Shown here: positions 47,383 through 50,320 of the stretch, in pieces
How positions within the stretch are numbered: the first letter of the stretch is position 1
Layout: the number at the start of each line of letters is the position of its first letter
Source: an uncultured Clostridia bacterium
Lineage (GTDB): Bacteria > Bacillota > Clostridia > TANB77 > CAG-508
Reading direction: 5' to 3'
Assembly: GCA_934168355.1 (NCBI GenBank)
Contig: CAKPNI010000001.1
Coordinates: 3,886 to 67,885 of the forward strand
DNA: 64,000 nt
Notes under the pieces: model-generated
Databases searched by the model: none
The model's input: only the letters and a program-made list of their open reading frames with translations
Told to the model about the DNA's origin: nothing
Position numbers and translations under genes: made by a program

Positions 47383-47424
47383 ATTTGGGACGGTTCCTTT
47401 TCCGAAAAGGAACCGTCCCAAATC
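47383..47424 (+). repeat. Palindromic repeat element copy R4 (20-bp stem) in priA 5' UTR
   Basis: ATTTGGGACGGTTCCTTTTC-C-GAAAAGGAACCGTCCCAAAT. Followed by AAAAAGAAAGGA SD and the priA ATG. Confidence 0.85.
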
Positions 47425-47443
47425 CAAAAAGAAAGGAATTTAA

Positions 47444-49666
47444 ATGATAGCAGAAATAATAATAGATAGCAAAGCAAAAAGCCTAAACAGAAAATTTGAC
47501 TATGAAATACCGCAAGAGTTAGAAGACATAGTAGATGTAGGAAGTAGAGTTCTAGTACCATTTGGAAACTTCAAAACACTAGAACAAGGCTATATTATAA
47601 AAATAAAAGAAAAAACAGAATATAAAGTAAAGTCAATAGCTGGACTAGAAGAAAATTTGCCATCAGAAAAAATAAAATTAGCAAGATGGATGGCAAGAAA
47701 ATATTTTTGTAATGTTTCAGAATGTATAAAATTAATGTTAACACCGGGAACAAGAGCTAAAAATAAAGAAGATAGAGTGCAAGATAAAAATATAAATTTT
47801 GTATATTTAAATATTCCATATGAAGAGATAAATATAGATGAATTAAAAGGAGAAAAACAAAAAAAGTTAGTAGAATTTATAAAAAATAATGAAGGCTTAA
47901 CAATACCAGAAATAGAAAATTTTGCTGATATTTCAAGGAGTACGGTTAATTCTTTAGTAAAAAAAGAAATTTTAAAAATCGTAAATAAAAAGATTGATAG
48001 AAATCCATTGATAAATAAAAAGGTAAATAATAACAAAAAGCTAGAATTTACAGATGAACAGAAACAAGCATATTTAAAAGTGGCACATACGATGGAAGAA
48101 AATAGATTTGAAGAATTTTTGCTATATGGAATAACAGGTTCTGGAAAAACAGAAGTATATTTACAATTAATAGAAAAAGCCTTAAATGAGAATAAATCAT
48201 CAATTTGCTTAGTACCTGAAATATCACTAACTCCACAAATGTTAGATAGATTTATAGGAAGATTTGGAAAAGAAAAAATTGCAGTATTACATAGCAAATT
48301 ATCGATAGGCGAAAGACATGATGAATGGGAAAGAATAAAAAATGATGAAGCCAAAATTGTAATAGGTGCAAGGTCAGCTATATTTGCACCATGCAATAAT
48401 TTAGGATTAATAATAATTGACGAAGAACATGATAGCTCATATAAATCTGAATCAAGTCCAAGATATTCAGCAAAAGAGGTAGCTCACGAAATTGCAAAAG
48501 AAAAGAAAATACCATTAATACTTGGAAGTGCAACACCAGATTTAAGAACTTTTTATAAAGCACAAAATCAAAAAATATCAACATTAAGATTAACAAAAAG
48601 AGCAAATAATTCTAATTTACCAGAAGTTCAAATTGTAGACCTAAAAATGGAACTTGCGACTGGAAATAGGTCGATGATAAGTAATTTGTTATACTCAGAA
48701 ATGGAGAAAAATTTAAAAGAAAAAAGACAAACAATACTGTTTTTAAATAGAAGAGGGTACTCAACATTTATAATGTGTAGAGATTGTGGATATACTCTAA
48801 AATGCCCAAATTGCAATATAAGTTTAACATATCATATAACTAAAAATATATTAAAGTGTCACTATTGTGGGCATACCGAAAGACCGGTAAGCGTTTGCCC
48901 AGAATGTAAAAGCACAAAAATAAGATATTTTGGAACAGGAACACAAAAATTAGAACAAGAAATAAACAAGCTATTTCCAAGTGCTTCTACAATTAGAATG
49001 GATGTGGACACAGTAACTAAAAAGAATTCGCATGAAGAGATTCTAAGAAAATTTAAAGATGAAAATATAGATATTTTAATAGGAACACAAATGGTAGTAA
49101 AAGGACATCATTTTCCGAAAGTTACATTAGTTGGAGTAATTGCAGCAGATGGTTCTTTAAACCAAGATGATTATAGAGCAAATGAAAGAACATTCCAAAT
49201 ACTTACACAGGTTGCAGGTAGAGCAGGACGTGAGAATTTGCCGGGAAAAGTTGTAATACAAACCTATAATCCAGATAGTTTCCCAATTGAATATTCAAAG
49301 ACGCAAGATTATGATTTATTTTATGATACAGAAATCAAACTAAGAAAACAGTTGAAATATCCACCATTTTGCGATATAATATTAATTGGATTTTCGGGAG
49401 ATAGTCAAAAGGAAATTGAAGATGTAAGTTTGTATATGTTTAATATGTTAAAGACCAGCTTAGAAAAATATCAAATAAATGTGTTTCAGCCTATGCCAGC
49501 ACCTATTGATAAAATTCAAAATAAAATTAGATGGAGAATTATTGCAAAAGGTGTTGTAAATGAGGATGTTACAATTATTTTGAATAAATGCTTACAAAAT
49601 GTGTATGGGATGAATTTGAGGCATACTAAGGTTAGTGTGGATGTTAATCCTAATAATATGATGTAG
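47444..49666 (+). CDS. priA: Primosomal protein N' (replication restart helicase PriA)
   Basis: 740 aa, Walker A GITGSGKTEVY, DEEH box, Cys-rich zinc-binding region. Confidence 0.95.
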   Translation: MIAEIIIDSKAKSLNRKFDYEIPQELEDIVDVGSRVLVPFGNFKTLEQGYIIKIKEKTEYKVKSIAGLEENLPSEKIKLARWMARKYFCNVSECIKLMLTPGTRAKNKEDRVQDKNINFVYLNIPYEEINIDELKGEKQKKLVEFIKNNEGLTIPEIENFADISRSTVNSLVKKEILKIVNKKIDRNPLINKKVNNNKKLEFTDEQKQAYLKVAHTMEENRFEEFLLYGITGSGKTEVYLQLIEKALNENKSSICLVPEISLTPQMLDRFIGRFGKEKIAVLHSKLSIGERHDEWERIKNDEAKIVIGARSAIFAPCNNLGLIIIDEEHDSSYKSESSPRYSAKEVAHEIAKEKKIPLILGSATPDLRTFYKAQNQKISTLRLTKRANNSNLPEVQIVDLKMELATGNRSMISNLLYSEMEKNLKEKRQTILFLNRRGYSTFIMCRDCGYTLKCPNCNISLTYHITKNILKCHYCGHTERPVSVCPECKSTKIRYFGTGTQKLEQEINKLFPSASTIRMDVDTVTKKNSHEEILRKFKDENIDILIGTQMVVKGHHFPKVTLVGVIAADGSLNQDDYRANERTFQILTQVAGRAGRENLPGKVVIQTYNPDSFPIEYSKTQDYDLFYDTEIKLRKQLKYPPFCDIILIGFSGDSQKEIEDVSLYMFNMLKTSLEKYQINVFQPMPAPIDKIQNKIRWRIIAKGVVNEDVTIILNKCLQNVYGMNLRHTKVSVDVNPNNMM

Positions 49667-49672
49667 GCAAAA

Positions 49673-49734
49673 ATGTTCTTTTGGGACCGGTTCTTTTAAG
49701 AACATGTCCATAAAAGAACCGGTCCCAAACGAAC
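49673..49734 (+). repeat. Palindromic repeat element copy R5 in def 5' region
   Basis: ATGTTCTTTTGGGACCGGTTCTTTT...AAAAGAACCGGTCCCAAACGAAC. Followed by AAAAAAGAAAGGAAG SD. Confidence 0.85.
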
Positions 49735-49755
49735 AAAAAAGAAAGGAAGATAAGA

Positions 49756-50241
49756 ATGGCACTAAGAAAAATAAGAGAACAAGGAGACGAAATATTAAGA
49801 AAGAAATCAAGAGAAGTAAATATTGATGACATAACAGCAGAAAAAAATCAAAGTTTAATAGATGATATGTTAGAAACGATGTATCATTTTAATGGAGTAG
49901 GCTTAGCTGCTGTTCAAGTTGGAATTTTAAAACAAATTATTGTAATTGATGTAGATGACGATAAAGGTCCATATGTTTTAATAAATCCAAAAATATTAAA
50001 AACAAAAGGTTCTAAAGAATGTGAAGAAGGATGTTTGAGCTTTCCTAATGAATTTGGAAAAGTTGTTAGACCAACTGAAGTTGTTGTTGAGTTTTATGAT
50101 AGAGAAGCCAAAAAGGTTAAATTAAAAGCAAAAGATTTATTGGCACAAGCTGTATGCCATGAGGTAGACCATTTAAATGGAGTTTTATTTGTGGATTTAG
50201 TTGAGCCGGGTACTTTGGAGTATGTTTCTCCAAAAGATTAA
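49756..50241 (+). CDS. def: Peptide deformylase
   Basis: GxGxAAxQ (GVGLAAVQ), EGCLS, HEVDH motifs. Confidence 0.95.
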   Translation: MALRKIREQGDEILRKKSREVNIDDITAEKNQSLIDDMLETMYHFNGVGLAAVQVGILKQIIVIDVDDDKGPYVLINPKILKTKGSKECEEGCLSFPNEFGKVVRPTEVVVEFYDREAKKVKLKAKDLLAQAVCHEVDHLNGVLFVDLVEPGTLEYVSPKD

Positions 50242-50263
50242 AACTTAAACTTGATGCATAATG

Positions 50264-50320
50264 GCACATTTGGACCGGTTCTTTTTGTGACATGCGCAAA
50301 AAGAACCGGTCCAAATGTGC
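50264..50320 (+). repeat. Palindromic repeat element copy R6 (24-bp perfect stem, 9-nt loop) in fmt 5' region
   Basis: GCACATTTGGACCGGTTCTTTTTG-TGACATGCG-CAAAAAGAACCGGTCCAAATGTGC. Confidence 0.85.

What the first reader, a model, noticed from the sequence alone, without database searches (positions are those of the whole stretch)
47383..50320. Every gene of the priA-def-fmt operon is individually preceded by a copy of the hairpin element
The copies at 47383-47424 (before priA), 49673-49734 (before def) and 50264-50320 (before fmt) each sit in a 70-100 nt intercistronic gap and are followed by an AAAGAAAGGA-type SD. R6 is a perfect 24-bp stem. In most Firmicutes def and fmt are tightly coupled. 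Here each cistron has acquired its own hairpin plus SD, consistent with a mobile UTR module or with processing into separately stabilised monocistronic mRNAs.
Basis: seen in the sequence. Interest (0 to 1): 0.65.

Follow-up and report, generated by a model that had tools for sequence, protein, structure and literature searches.

The report
REPIN hairpin repeats between operon genes
The three hairpins between priA, def and fmt are copies of an abundant mobile palindromic repeat (a REPIN-like family with its own tyrosine transposase in close relatives) that has invaded short gene spacers in a common uncultured gut Clostridia lineage; they are not a purpose-built regulatory module.

Summary
Perfect or near-perfect hairpins lie at 47376-47430, 49674-49735 and 50264-50320, in gaps of 69, 89 and 98 nt, each followed by an AGAAAGGA Shine-Dalgarno (SD) sequence. 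They belong to a repeat family with core TTGGGACCGGTTCTTTT: 18 matches in the window against 0.08 expected, 16 of them in the 9.6% that is non-coding.

The family fills many uncultured gut Clostridia genomes. Variable arms covary around the conserved core, giving perfect stems of up to 56 bp. In relatives, a 262-aa Y1/HUH transposase sits in conserved synteny, bracketed by these units in inverted orientation. Its best NCBIfam match is "REP-associated tyrosine transposase". More distant homologues carry related but lineage-specific flanking repeats. This is the REP/REPIN-RAYT arrangement, here without a GTAG tag.

Element-free relatives have 11-44 nt spacers. Lineages about 93-95% identical to the window carry at least four structural alleles of the priA-def spacer. 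Near-clonal strains are identical to the window.

The SD is not part of the element, because def has it without any hairpin. None of the three copies has a U-tail, so none looks like a terminator. Effects on mRNA processing or stability are plausible by analogy only and were not tested. I did not show that the window's own genome carries the transposase.

The parts
47376..47430 (.). REPIN-like hairpin (GGGACGGTTCC variant of the core; perfect stem 47382-47424) between the serpin-like gene and priA
   Evidence: It is 98% identical over 50 nt to copies at other loci in UMGS1576 and UMGS1925. In relatives it is followed by a T-run and a promoter that the window lacks.
47430..47437 (+). AGAAAGGA Shine-Dalgarno of priA (ATG at 47444)
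47444..49666 (+). priA
   Evidence: Pfam PriA_3primeBD, DEAD, Zn_ribbon_PriA and PriA_C.
49674..49735 (.). REPIN-like hairpin made of two inverted 31-nt units with TGTTC/GAACA arms, between priA and def
   Evidence: It is 94-95% identical over 62-66 nt to copies at non-orthologous loci in three other genomes. Sister lineages carry other alleles at this site.
49740..49747 (+). AGAAAGGA Shine-Dalgarno of def. It is ancestral and not carried by the element.
   Evidence: The same GGAAAGGAAGATAAAAATG is present in element-free L114-L117.
49756..50241 (+). def (peptide deformylase)
   Evidence: Pfam Pep_deformylase, E 6.8e-48.
50264..50320 (.). REPIN-like hairpin with GCACA/TGTGC arms and a perfect 24-bp stem (26 bp when folded), between def and fmt
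   Evidence: There are two compensated AU/UA swaps against the orthologous copy, and 100% of cells are paired.
50322..50329 (+). AGAAAGGA Shine-Dalgarno of fmt (ATG at 50340)
50340..51311 (+). fmt (methionyl-tRNA formyltransferase)
   Evidence: Pfam Formyl_trans_N and Formyl_trans_C.
195..250 (.). Family copy (imperfect hairpin) in the ctsR 5' UTR, downstream of the CtsR box at 143-160
   Evidence: The left arm is decayed in most strains of the same species.
709..810 (+). Three direct units (717-733, 748-764, 790-806) between ctsR and mcsA. No stable fold is predicted.
   Evidence: z -0.2. The third unit is present only in the window and L143.
4894..4956 (.). Family copy in the opposite arrangement (A-tract, stem, T-tract). 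It is terminator-like on both strands and lies between the convergent clpC and a cation-efflux gene.
57636..57708 (.). Composite of three units (+ - -) of the GGGACCGTTTC variant, upstream of the whiA promoter
   Evidence: It is 98% identical over 65 nt to a copy in UMGS1925 contig L098, whose flanks gave no match to the window.
60410..60460 (+). Two degenerate direct units upstream of lysS

Best explanation
The three hairpins are REPINs: pairs of inverted copies of a short repeat. Each repeat is a conserved core TTGGGACCGGTTCTTTT(TG) set between variable arms of 5-7 nt that are complementary to each other. The family is specific to a lineage of uncultured gut Clostridia. It is most likely spread and renewed by a cognate REP-associated Y1 (HUH) tyrosine transposase acting on single-stranded DNA hairpins, with help from gene conversion between copies, slippage of 10-nt and 31-nt modules, and deletion between short direct repeats. 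The copies entered spacers that were ancestrally short, between a stop codon and the next SD. That is one of the few places in a 90%-coding genome where an insert of 45-130 nt is tolerated. The canonical orientation (core, loop, reverse-complemented core) leaves no U-tract after the stem, so operon transcription should read through. Once transcribed, each copy forms a 20-26 bp perfect RNA helix. By analogy with REP and Correia elements, that helix would block exonucleases and/or be cut by RNase III, and so would loosen the expression coupling of neighbouring cistrons as a by-product. What was shown: family membership, extragenic bias, covariation of the arms, absence from relatives, allele turnover, and a transposase flanked by the repeats in relatives. 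What is inferred: that this transposase moves the repeats, that the window's own genome encodes it, and every RNA-level effect.
For: Repeat family: 18 core matches against 0.08 expected, and 16 of 18 extragenic. Exact 17-mers occur many times in at least 12 low-GC Clostridia MAGs, with only single matches in unrelated high-GC phyla, as expected by chance. Architecture: inverted doublets in the '+-' arrangement occur at 42 sites against 2 for '-+'. Direct arrays with 31-nt spacing also occur. Perfect stems reach 56 bp and there is no target-site duplication. Covariation: 17 of 26 stem pairs show changes on both sides, and 0 of 500 shuffles reach the observed score. The orthologous def-fmt copies show 2 compensated swaps with 100% pairing and a diverged loop. 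Derived state: element-free relatives have priA-def 11 nt, fmt-def 20 nt and def-fmt 44 nt. Turnover: the priA-def gap is 89, 128/129, 112 or 65 nt, with different arm types, among contigs encoding the identical Def protein. The ctsR-mcsA spacer has 2 or 3 units within the species. Near-identical copies occur at non-orthologous loci. Transposase: the 262-aa ORF in L023 matches Pfam Y1_Tnp (35.8 bits, cut-off 23). Its only NCBIfam hit is NF047646, REP-associated tyrosine transposase (E 1.4e-16). The HUH motif and the RYxHxNP tyrosine are invariant. The gene is flanked by 2-3 U+ units upstream and U- units downstream, in conserved yunB/nuoE-like synteny in 9 contigs. Homologues from 99% down to 31% identity carry inverted flanking repeats that change with lineage around the same GGGAC(C)GGTTCT theme. 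No U-tail or promoter was detected in the def and fmt spacers. Literature: REPINs are inverted REP doublets that form hairpins, commonly show compensatory changes, and sit next to RAYTs (PMC3116915; PMC5581495). RNase III cuts Correia-containing transcripts (PMC10969869).
Against: The transposase was not found in the 64-kb window. It is tied to the window's lineage only indirectly: the contigs come from the same three cohorts and share the CACATTTGG arm type. No GTAG or CGTC tag was seen. The protein scores below the curated RAYT cut-off (60.7 against 80 bits). There is no sequence match to any solved structure, and the structure model was too poor for a fold comparison. No empty allele of any of the three operon spacers was found among close relatives, so insertion as an event is inferred from more distant relatives. 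The enrichment of GAAAGG-type SDs next to elements is not explained by simple tolerance. No transcript data were available.
Confidence: 0.8

Rival explanations
1. The hairpins are selected operon punctuation. Each is kept because it creates a processing site (RNase III) or an exonuclease barrier that yields separately stabilised priA, def and fmt messages.
For: The stems are perfect, and differences between lineages are compensated. All sister-lineage alleles keep some element at each spacer, and none is empty. The hairpins sit 2-6 nt before the SD and 7-22 nt after the stop codon. No U-tail follows them. REP and Correia elements provide precedents (PMC10969869).
Against: The same family precedes unrelated genes (ctsR, mcsA, whiA, lysS, and clpB in L048) and also lies between convergent genes. 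Relatives do well with 11-44 nt spacers. One allele is a solo unit that cannot form the hairpin (L133). The ctsR copy has a decayed arm in most strains of the same species. Direct arrays have no predicted structure. Solo units and arrays show no orientation bias relative to transcription (39 against 25, p = 0.10). Covariation is also expected from copying of palindromic masters.
Confidence: 0.12
2. The repeats are binding sites (operators or nucleoid sites) for a dimeric DNA-binding protein that recognises GAAC-NN-GTTC-like palindromes. The priA-def-fmt genes would then belong to its regulon.
For: The core contains the palindrome ACCGGT within GRACCGGTYC. Flanking TGTTC/GAACA half-sites recur at spacings of about 11 bp.
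Against: The arms vary freely as long as they stay complementary. Copy number, orientation and spacing differ between strains at the same site. The downstream genes are functionally unrelated. The family is flanked-by-transposase in relatives. Comparison by eye with the CtsR, LexA, PurR and parS consensus sequences found no match. Those consensus sequences were recalled from memory.
Confidence: 0.04
3. The hairpins are intrinsic terminators or attenuators that make each gene its own transcription unit.
For: The family can supply terminator-like structures. The copy at 4894-4956 has a T-tract on both strands, between convergent genes. In sister lineages the hairpin upstream of priA is followed by TTTT(T) and a promoter.
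Against: The three copies in question are followed by CCAAAAAG, AAAAAAG and AAGAAAGG. The scan flags none of them as a terminator, and no promoter-like site lies in the def or fmt spacers. In the window the T-run and promoter before priA are deleted.
Confidence: 0.04

Closest known systems
REP/REPIN-RAYT systems (E. coli REP/BIME; Pseudomonas fluorescens REPINs)
   Same: Both are short, extragenic, highly over-represented repeats. Inverted doublets form long hairpins in ssDNA or mRNA. Compensatory changes are found in the stem. Singlets and clusters also occur. A Y1/HUH transposase sits in a fixed, syntenic extragenic site and is bracketed by the same repeats in inverted orientation. There is no target-site duplication (PMC3116915, PMC5581495).
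   Different: The host is a low-GC Clostridia lineage, whereas published surveys place abundant REPs mainly in Proteobacteria, Cyanobacteria, Chloroflexi and PVC (PMC3733652). No GTAG or CGTC tag is present. The conserved part lies between variable complementary arms, and the doublets are usually perfect palindromes of up to 56 bp. The transposase is 262 aa with an extra C-terminal region of about 120 aa, and it scores below the curated RAYT cut-off. Alleles turn over between lineages only 5-7% diverged.
Correia elements (CREE/NEMIS) of Neisseria
   Same: Both are abundant palindromic inserts inside operons and UTRs that are co-transcribed. Their long stems are RNase III substrates and alter the expression of neighbouring genes (PMC10969869).
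   Different: Correia elements are MITEs of about 100-150 bp with terminal inverted repeats, a TA target duplication and an IHF site. They have no cognate Y1 transposase. Here no duplication was found.
Pneumococcal SPRITE, BOX and RUP repeats
   Same: These are small interspersed repeats in a Firmicute, are often transcribed, and are sometimes terminator-like (PMC3049150, PMC10969869).
   Different: The sequences are unrelated. RUP is an IS630-type MITE, and BOX is modular and not a simple palindrome. None is associated with a RAYT.
IS200/IS605 insertion sequences and their hairpin ends
   Same: The transposase superfamily is the same (Pfam Y1_Tnp), and subterminal hairpins are recognised in ssDNA.
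   Different: IS200 copies itself and occurs in multiple copies with asymmetric ends. Here the gene sits at one conserved locus in every contig seen, and the short repeats, not the gene, are the multi-copy entity.

Membership tests
REP/REPIN-RAYT | Short repeat strongly over-represented and confined to extragenic space | tested here: met
   18 matches against 0.08 expected. 16 of 18 lie in the 9.6% of the window that is non-coding, p = 7e-15.
REP/REPIN-RAYT | Repeats organised as inverted doublets that fold into a hairpin | tested here: met
   42 '+-' doublet sites in 84 loci. ssDNA folds are -23.5 to -30.2 kcal/mol, z -8.5 to -11.4.
REP/REPIN-RAYT | Each single REP is itself a small imperfect palindrome | tested here: inconclusive
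   Complementary arms of 5-7 bp flank the core. Single units fold only weakly: -3.4 to -4.4 kcal/mol, z -0.15 to -2.7.
REP/REPIN-RAYT | A Y1/HUH transposase gene flanked by the same repeats in inverted orientation | tested here: met
   Seen in L023 and in L152-L160. This was shown in relatives and in contigs from the same cohorts, not in the window's own 64 kb.
REP/REPIN-RAYT | Transposase is single-copy, at a conserved chromosomal position, and vertically inherited | tested here: inconclusive
   The same yunB / Y1_Tnp / NuoE-like neighbourhood is seen in most of the 9 contigs, across 72% protein identity. L154 has a different downstream neighbour. Only one copy was found in about 0.8 Mb of loci. 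Copy number per genome could not be counted.
REP/REPIN-RAYT | Flanking repeat and transposase diverge together | tested here: met
   Homologues from 99% down to 31% identity carry inverted flanks that vary with lineage on one theme: GGGACCGGTTCT, GGGACCGGGTA, GGTGCCGGTTCT, GGGGTCGGTCC and GGGACGGTTCT.
REP/REPIN-RAYT | Conserved GTAG (or CGTC) tetranucleotide at one end of the REP | tested here: not met
   By inspection of 51 doublets and of the transposase flanks, no such tag is present.
REP/REPIN-RAYT | Protein passes a curated RAYT model | tested here: not met
   NF047646 is the only hit and spans the full profile, but it scores 60.7 bits against a cut-off of 80. Pfam Y1_Tnp does pass, at 35.8 against 23. 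HUH and the catalytic Tyr are invariant.
REP/REPIN-RAYT | Transposase binds and cleaves the repeat as ssDNA, and the repeats transpose | not testable with these tools
   This needs biochemistry or population sequencing.
MITE (DDE-transposase type, e.g. Correia) | Terminal inverted repeats plus a target-site duplication | tested here: not met
   The flanks of 51 doublets show no consistent direct repeat.
Intrinsic terminator | GC-rich stem directly followed by a U-tract | tested here: not met
   None of the three copies is flagged, and their tails are A-rich. The feature is met by other family copies (4894-4956; the up-priA copy in relatives).
Any Rfam RNA family | Score at or above the family's gathering threshold | tested here: not met
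   Only tRNA-Leu reaches gathering in the window. At E of 1 or less, the only other matches are generic long-hairpin miRNA models and one sRNA model (tp2, 31 against 50 bits), all below their thresholds.

The most novel reading that the evidence does not exclude
This may be a previously undescribed, GTAG-less REPIN-RAYT system of Firmicutes whose repeats are not scattered at random. They would instead be aimed at, or retained at, the few nucleotides just upstream of GAAAGG-type Shine-Dalgarno sequences. At those fixed sites whole hairpins would be swapped between subfamilies like cassettes (at least 4 alleles at one spacer), with arms re-templated to perfect symmetry. The host would then use them as operon punctuation that sets relative expression of essential genes such as priA, def and fmt.
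Probability: 0.15. Interest if true: 0.7.

Novelty: new variant of a known kind. Interest (0 to 1): 0.5.

Why it matters
In the papers consulted here, REPIN-RAYT systems are studied almost only in Proteobacteria, where they are presented as very slowly replicating, vertically inherited elements. Here a divergent, untagged version sits in a very prevalent uncultured human-gut Clostridia lineage; the window's Def protein is indexed in 1577 blocks of the assembly collection. That finding would extend the host range. It offers a system with visible allele turnover at defined sites between lineages only 5-7% diverged. It also gives a marker for strain typing.

There is a practical consequence for annotation. 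Gene callers extend ORFs through these hairpins, as with the 190-aa and 202-aa 'Def' entries and the 234-aa mcsA ORF. Long perfect palindromes are also assembly break points in MAGs.

If the hairpins do segment polycistronic mRNAs, that would show how selfish repeats reshape operon expression in reduced genomes.

Tried and rejected
1. I first thought the fmt ORF ended in an element-derived extension, because of the half unit at 51289-51305. This is rejected. The C-terminus IGDGSFC aligns with IExGxxFx in all relatives, and the extra length of Fmt is an internal insertion.

2. I considered the SD as part of the mobile unit. This is rejected. def keeps GGAAAGGAAGATAA in element-free relatives, and elements away from gene starts lack the motif.

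3. I compared the units by eye with the CtsR operator. GGTCCAAATGGGTCAAA at 800-816 resembles a CtsR box, but the true box is at 143-160 and the resemblance comes from the unit itself. Comparison with the LexA, PurBox and parS consensus sequences (recalled from memory) found no consistent match.

4. A search for target-site duplications found none.

5. A search for an empty priA-def site in JGI metagenomes gave 0 hits. This is uninformative, because the lineage may be absent from that collection.

6. A scan of viral contigs gave one match inside coding sequence with no inverted partner, which I take as chance.

7. My first regex screen for Y1 transposases found nothing. The gene was then found by listing ORFs flanked by units on both sides.

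8. Sequence searches of the transposase against PDB found nothing. The AlphaFold model had pLDDT 61.5 and pTM 0.34, so I ran no fold search.

9. Solo units and direct arrays show no significant orientation bias relative to genes.

10. No paper in the library contains the core motif in a relevant context.

11. Integron attC sites were considered but dismissed from memory, because the genes are core housekeeping genes and the stems are perfect.
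Full report
**Observation.** The window is a 27.7% G+C Firmicute-type sequence. Pfam confirms the gene order: serpin-like gene (46289-47374), priA (47444-49666), def (49756-50241), fmt (50340-51311), then ylxM-ffh.

- 47376-47430: 27-nt arms, 93% complementary.
- 49674-49735: 31-nt arms, 90% complementary.
- 50264-50320: 24-nt arms, 100% complementary.

They lie in gaps of 69, 89 and 98 nt, and each is followed by AGAAAGGA. As RNA they fold to -34.9, -37.2 and -48 kcal/mol, with z from -6.6 to -9.3. As ssDNA they fold to -23.5, -25 and -30.2 kcal/mol. None is followed by a T-run, and no promoter-like site lies in the def or fmt spacers.

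**A repeat family.** The arms share the core TTGGGACCGGTTCTTTT.
- It matches 18 times in the window at 3 mismatches or fewer, against 0.08 expected.
- 16 of the 18 matches fall in the 9.6% of the window that is non-coding.
- Further copies lie in the ctsR 5' UTR (195-250), between ctsR and mcsA (three direct units, 717-806), and between the convergent clpC and a cation-efflux gene (4894-4956). That last copy has the opposite arrangement and is therefore terminator-like.
- Two more copies lie upstream of whiA (57636-57708) and upstream of lysS (60410-60460).
- Rfam has no family for them. The motif appears in no relevant paper in the library.

A scan of one genome per species found the exact 17-mer many times in at least 12 low-GC uncultured Clostridia MAGs from human, rabbit and goat guts. 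Unrelated phyla gave only single matches, as expected by chance.

**Anatomy.** I examined 84 low-GC loci.
- The dominant form is an inverted doublet: core, loop, reverse-complemented core. There are 42 such sites against 2 in the reverse arrangement. Direct arrays with 31-nt spacing and solo units also occur.
- The core is conserved. The 5-7 nt arms on either side (GGCACA, GACCCA, TGTTC, TCTGA and others) vary but stay complementary. This gives perfect stems of up to 56 bp, some of them nested.
- On an anchored alignment of 49 doublets, 17 of 26 stem pairs change on both sides, and 0 of 500 shuffles reach the observed score.
- No target-site duplication is present.
- Most copies sit 4-30 nt after a stop codon and a few nucleotides before the next SD.

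**Orthologous loci.** Relatives without the family have tight junctions: priA-def 11 nt, fmt-def 20 nt and def-fmt 44 nt. The long spacers are therefore the derived state. Two relatives have other, unrelated palindromic inserts in the same spacers.

The window's exact Def protein is very common, indexed in 1577 blocks. Ten contigs that encode it are 93-95% identical to the window in priA and def, and 90.5-91.5% in fmt. Their priA-def spacer comes in four structural alleles:

| Allele | Gap (nt) | Found in |
|---|---|---|
| TGTTC-armed doublet | 89 | window |
| Three-unit GGCACA-armed element | 128/129 | most sister-lineage contigs |
| Doublet with changed but self-complementary core GGGGTCGG/CCGACCCC | 112 | L132, L137 |
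| Solo unit, left by deletion between GGCACAAA repeats | 65 | L133 |

The def-fmt hairpin differs from its orthologue by two compensated AU/UA swaps, by its loop, and by the presence or absence of one 10-nt module. It is closer to a copy at another locus in UMGS1925 than to its positional orthologue.

Near-clonal strains (99.9-100% identical) carry spacers identical to the window. The elements are therefore stable in the short term but are replaced over about 5-7% sequence divergence.

Within the window's species, most strains have only two units between ctsR and mcsA. Most also have a decayed left arm in the ctsR 5' UTR hairpin. The window and L143 have a third unit and a restored arm. Pairing is thus not maintained everywhere, and several changes can arrive together, as expected from conversion or re-templating.

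**The hairpin before priA.** In every sister-lineage contig this hairpin is followed by a T-run and a TTGTAA-17-TACAAT promoter. There it belongs with the upstream gene, even when that gene is a different one. The window lineage has lost about 48 nt, which fuses priA to the upstream unit.

**The SD.** In the window, all 5 genes directly preceded by an element use GAAAGGA, against 3 of the other 59 genes. Across the loci the counts are 32 of 70 against 83 of 508, an odds ratio of 4.3 with p = 2e-7. However, def has the same SD in element-free relatives, and elements not followed by a gene lack the motif. The SD is therefore not carried by the element. The association is real, and I cannot say whether it reflects target preference, retention, or the A-rich end of the palindrome.

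**Mobilising enzyme.** Listing ORFs flanked by units on both sides revealed a 262-aa protein in the closed genome OV788638.1.
- It matches Pfam Y1_Tnp at 35.8 bits, above the cut-off of 23.
- Its only NCBIfam hit is NF047646, REP-associated tyrosine transposase: E 1.4e-16 over the full profile, but at 60.7 bits it is below the 80-bit cut-off.
- The HUH motif and the RYxHxNP tyrosine are invariant in 20 homologues.
- It is preceded by three units and followed by units in the opposite orientation.
- A 72%-identical orthologue, P0139, lies in the same yunB / transposase / NuoE-like neighbourhood in eight contigs (one with a different downstream gene). It has 2-3 units upstream and 2 inverted units downstream.
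- Those contigs come from the same three cohorts as the window-identical contigs. This is circumstantial evidence only.
- Among 80 metagenomic homologues (99% down to 31% identity), the flanks carry inverted repeats that change with lineage on the same theme.

This is the REP/REPIN-RAYT configuration described for Proteobacteria: a transposase in a fixed extragenic site, flanked by the repeats it is thought to disseminate, with inverted doublets that form hairpins and commonly show compensatory changes (PMC3116915, PMC5581495, bioRxiv 10.1101/2021.07.10.451892).

It differs in several respects.
- There is no GTAG or CGTC tag. Published surveys report tagged REPs in Proteobacteria, Cyanobacteria, Chloroflexi, PVC and a few other phyla, but not in Firmicutes (PMC3733652).
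- The conserved segment lies between variable arms.
- The protein has an extra C-terminal region of about 120 aa.
- Sequence searches against solved structures were negative. The structure model was too poor to use.

**How it most likely works.**
- Shown: the three hairpins are copies of a dispersed, extragenic, covarying repeat family. The family is absent from some relatives, is replaced between sister lineages, and brackets a Y1 transposase in relatives.
- Inferred: the transposase moves or renews the repeats through ssDNA hairpins. Conversion, slippage and deletion between short repeats generate the alleles.
- Also inferred: the copies persist between stop codon and SD because little else in a 90%-coding genome tolerates them. 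The tail-less orientation lets transcription read through.
- By analogy only: the 20-26 bp RNA helices may block exonucleases or be cut by RNase III, as shown for Correia elements (PMC10969869). From memory and not verified here, REPs stabilise upstream mRNA (malE-malF), and a REP within about 15 nt of a stop codon lowers translation of the upstream gene in E. coli.

**Verdict.** The finding is real and is an instance of a known kind of element, in a divergent and apparently undescribed form. The mobile reading is supported. The 'hairpin plus SD module' is not. The RNA-processing reading is open.

Noticed in passing
window 47424-47443, compared with L106-L113 and L128-L137: The window lineage lacks about 48 nt that all sister-lineage contigs have between the hairpin and the priA SD. 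The missing segment is a T-run plus a TTGTAA-17-TACAAT promoter, and the deletion lies between two AATC repeats. priA therefore appears to have lost its own promoter and the upstream gene its terminator tail.
   Followed up: partly
window 57771-58058 and 58111-58632: whiA is split into two ORFs in different frames: 95 aa with no Pfam hit, and 173 aa with the LAGLIDADG_WhiA and HTH_WhiA domains. This could be a frameshift, a pseudogene or an assembly error.
   Followed up: no
window 195-250; L138-L147 around 1120-1200: The ctsR 5' UTR hairpin lies downstream of the CtsR box (143-160). Most strains of the same species have a decayed left arm (GAATGGAAACGG). The window and L143 have GATTGGGGGACGG, which differs at several adjacent positions and restores pairing, in strains at least 98.4% identical to the window in ctsR. 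This looks like one templated event.
   Followed up: partly
window-wide and loci L001-L105: GAAAGG-type Shine-Dalgarno sequences, which pair with the extreme 3' end of 16S rRNA, are enriched directly after the elements (32 of 70 against 83 of 508 genes). Replaced allele blocks end exactly at this motif.
   Followed up: partly
L118 3983-4295 and 898-1205; L119 3339-3501 and 3989-4258: Relatives with 86-88% identical Def carry other long palindromic inserts (161-311 nt) in the same priA/def/fmt spacers. L118 also has a 300-nt nested palindrome built from a GGGACCGGGTA variant of the unit. The clade seems generally prone to palindromic invasion of spacers.
   Followed up: no
L107, L109, L110, L131 (about 5213-6349); L129, L132-L134, L137 (about 5093-5968): Strain-variable genes (a Fic-domain protein, or a PHP-domain protein with neighbouring genes) are inserted immediately after the fmt stop codon. 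The breakpoint is right behind the REP-like 17-mer at the fmt 3' end.
   Followed up: no
window 51289-51305: The last codons of fmt (IGDGSFC) match the unit at 15 of 17 positions. Sister strains have TTGAGGATGGTTGTTTT, which has 5 mismatches. The window version has several substitutions that bring it closer to the unit consensus, so conversion by an element copy is possible.
   Followed up: partly
L048 720-860 (minus strand): In the Hadza MAG CAKPDO, the clpB leader carries a CIRCE-like inverted repeat and a -10 box, followed by two direct units of the family.
   Followed up: no
window 51338-51424: A promoter-like TTGACA-17-TAAACT is followed by a terminator-like hairpin with a T-run (51399-51424), ahead of ylxM-ffh. 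This could be a leader attenuator, or it could be the true terminator of the fmt transcript.
   Followed up: no
P0139 and homologues, residues about 140-262: The RAYT-like transposases of this clade carry a conserved C-terminal helical region of about 120 aa (pLDDT about 90 for residues 200-260). It matched neither the Pfam Y1_Tnp model nor the NCBIfam RAYT model, both of which aligned only to residues up to about 138. Its function is unknown.
   Followed up: no
P0002 and P0003; window ORF 709-1413: Gene callers extend ORFs upstream through the hairpins. Examples are 'Def' entries of 190 and 202 aa and an mcsA ORF of 234 aa, so public annotations of this lineage contain element-derived false N-termini.
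   Followed up: no
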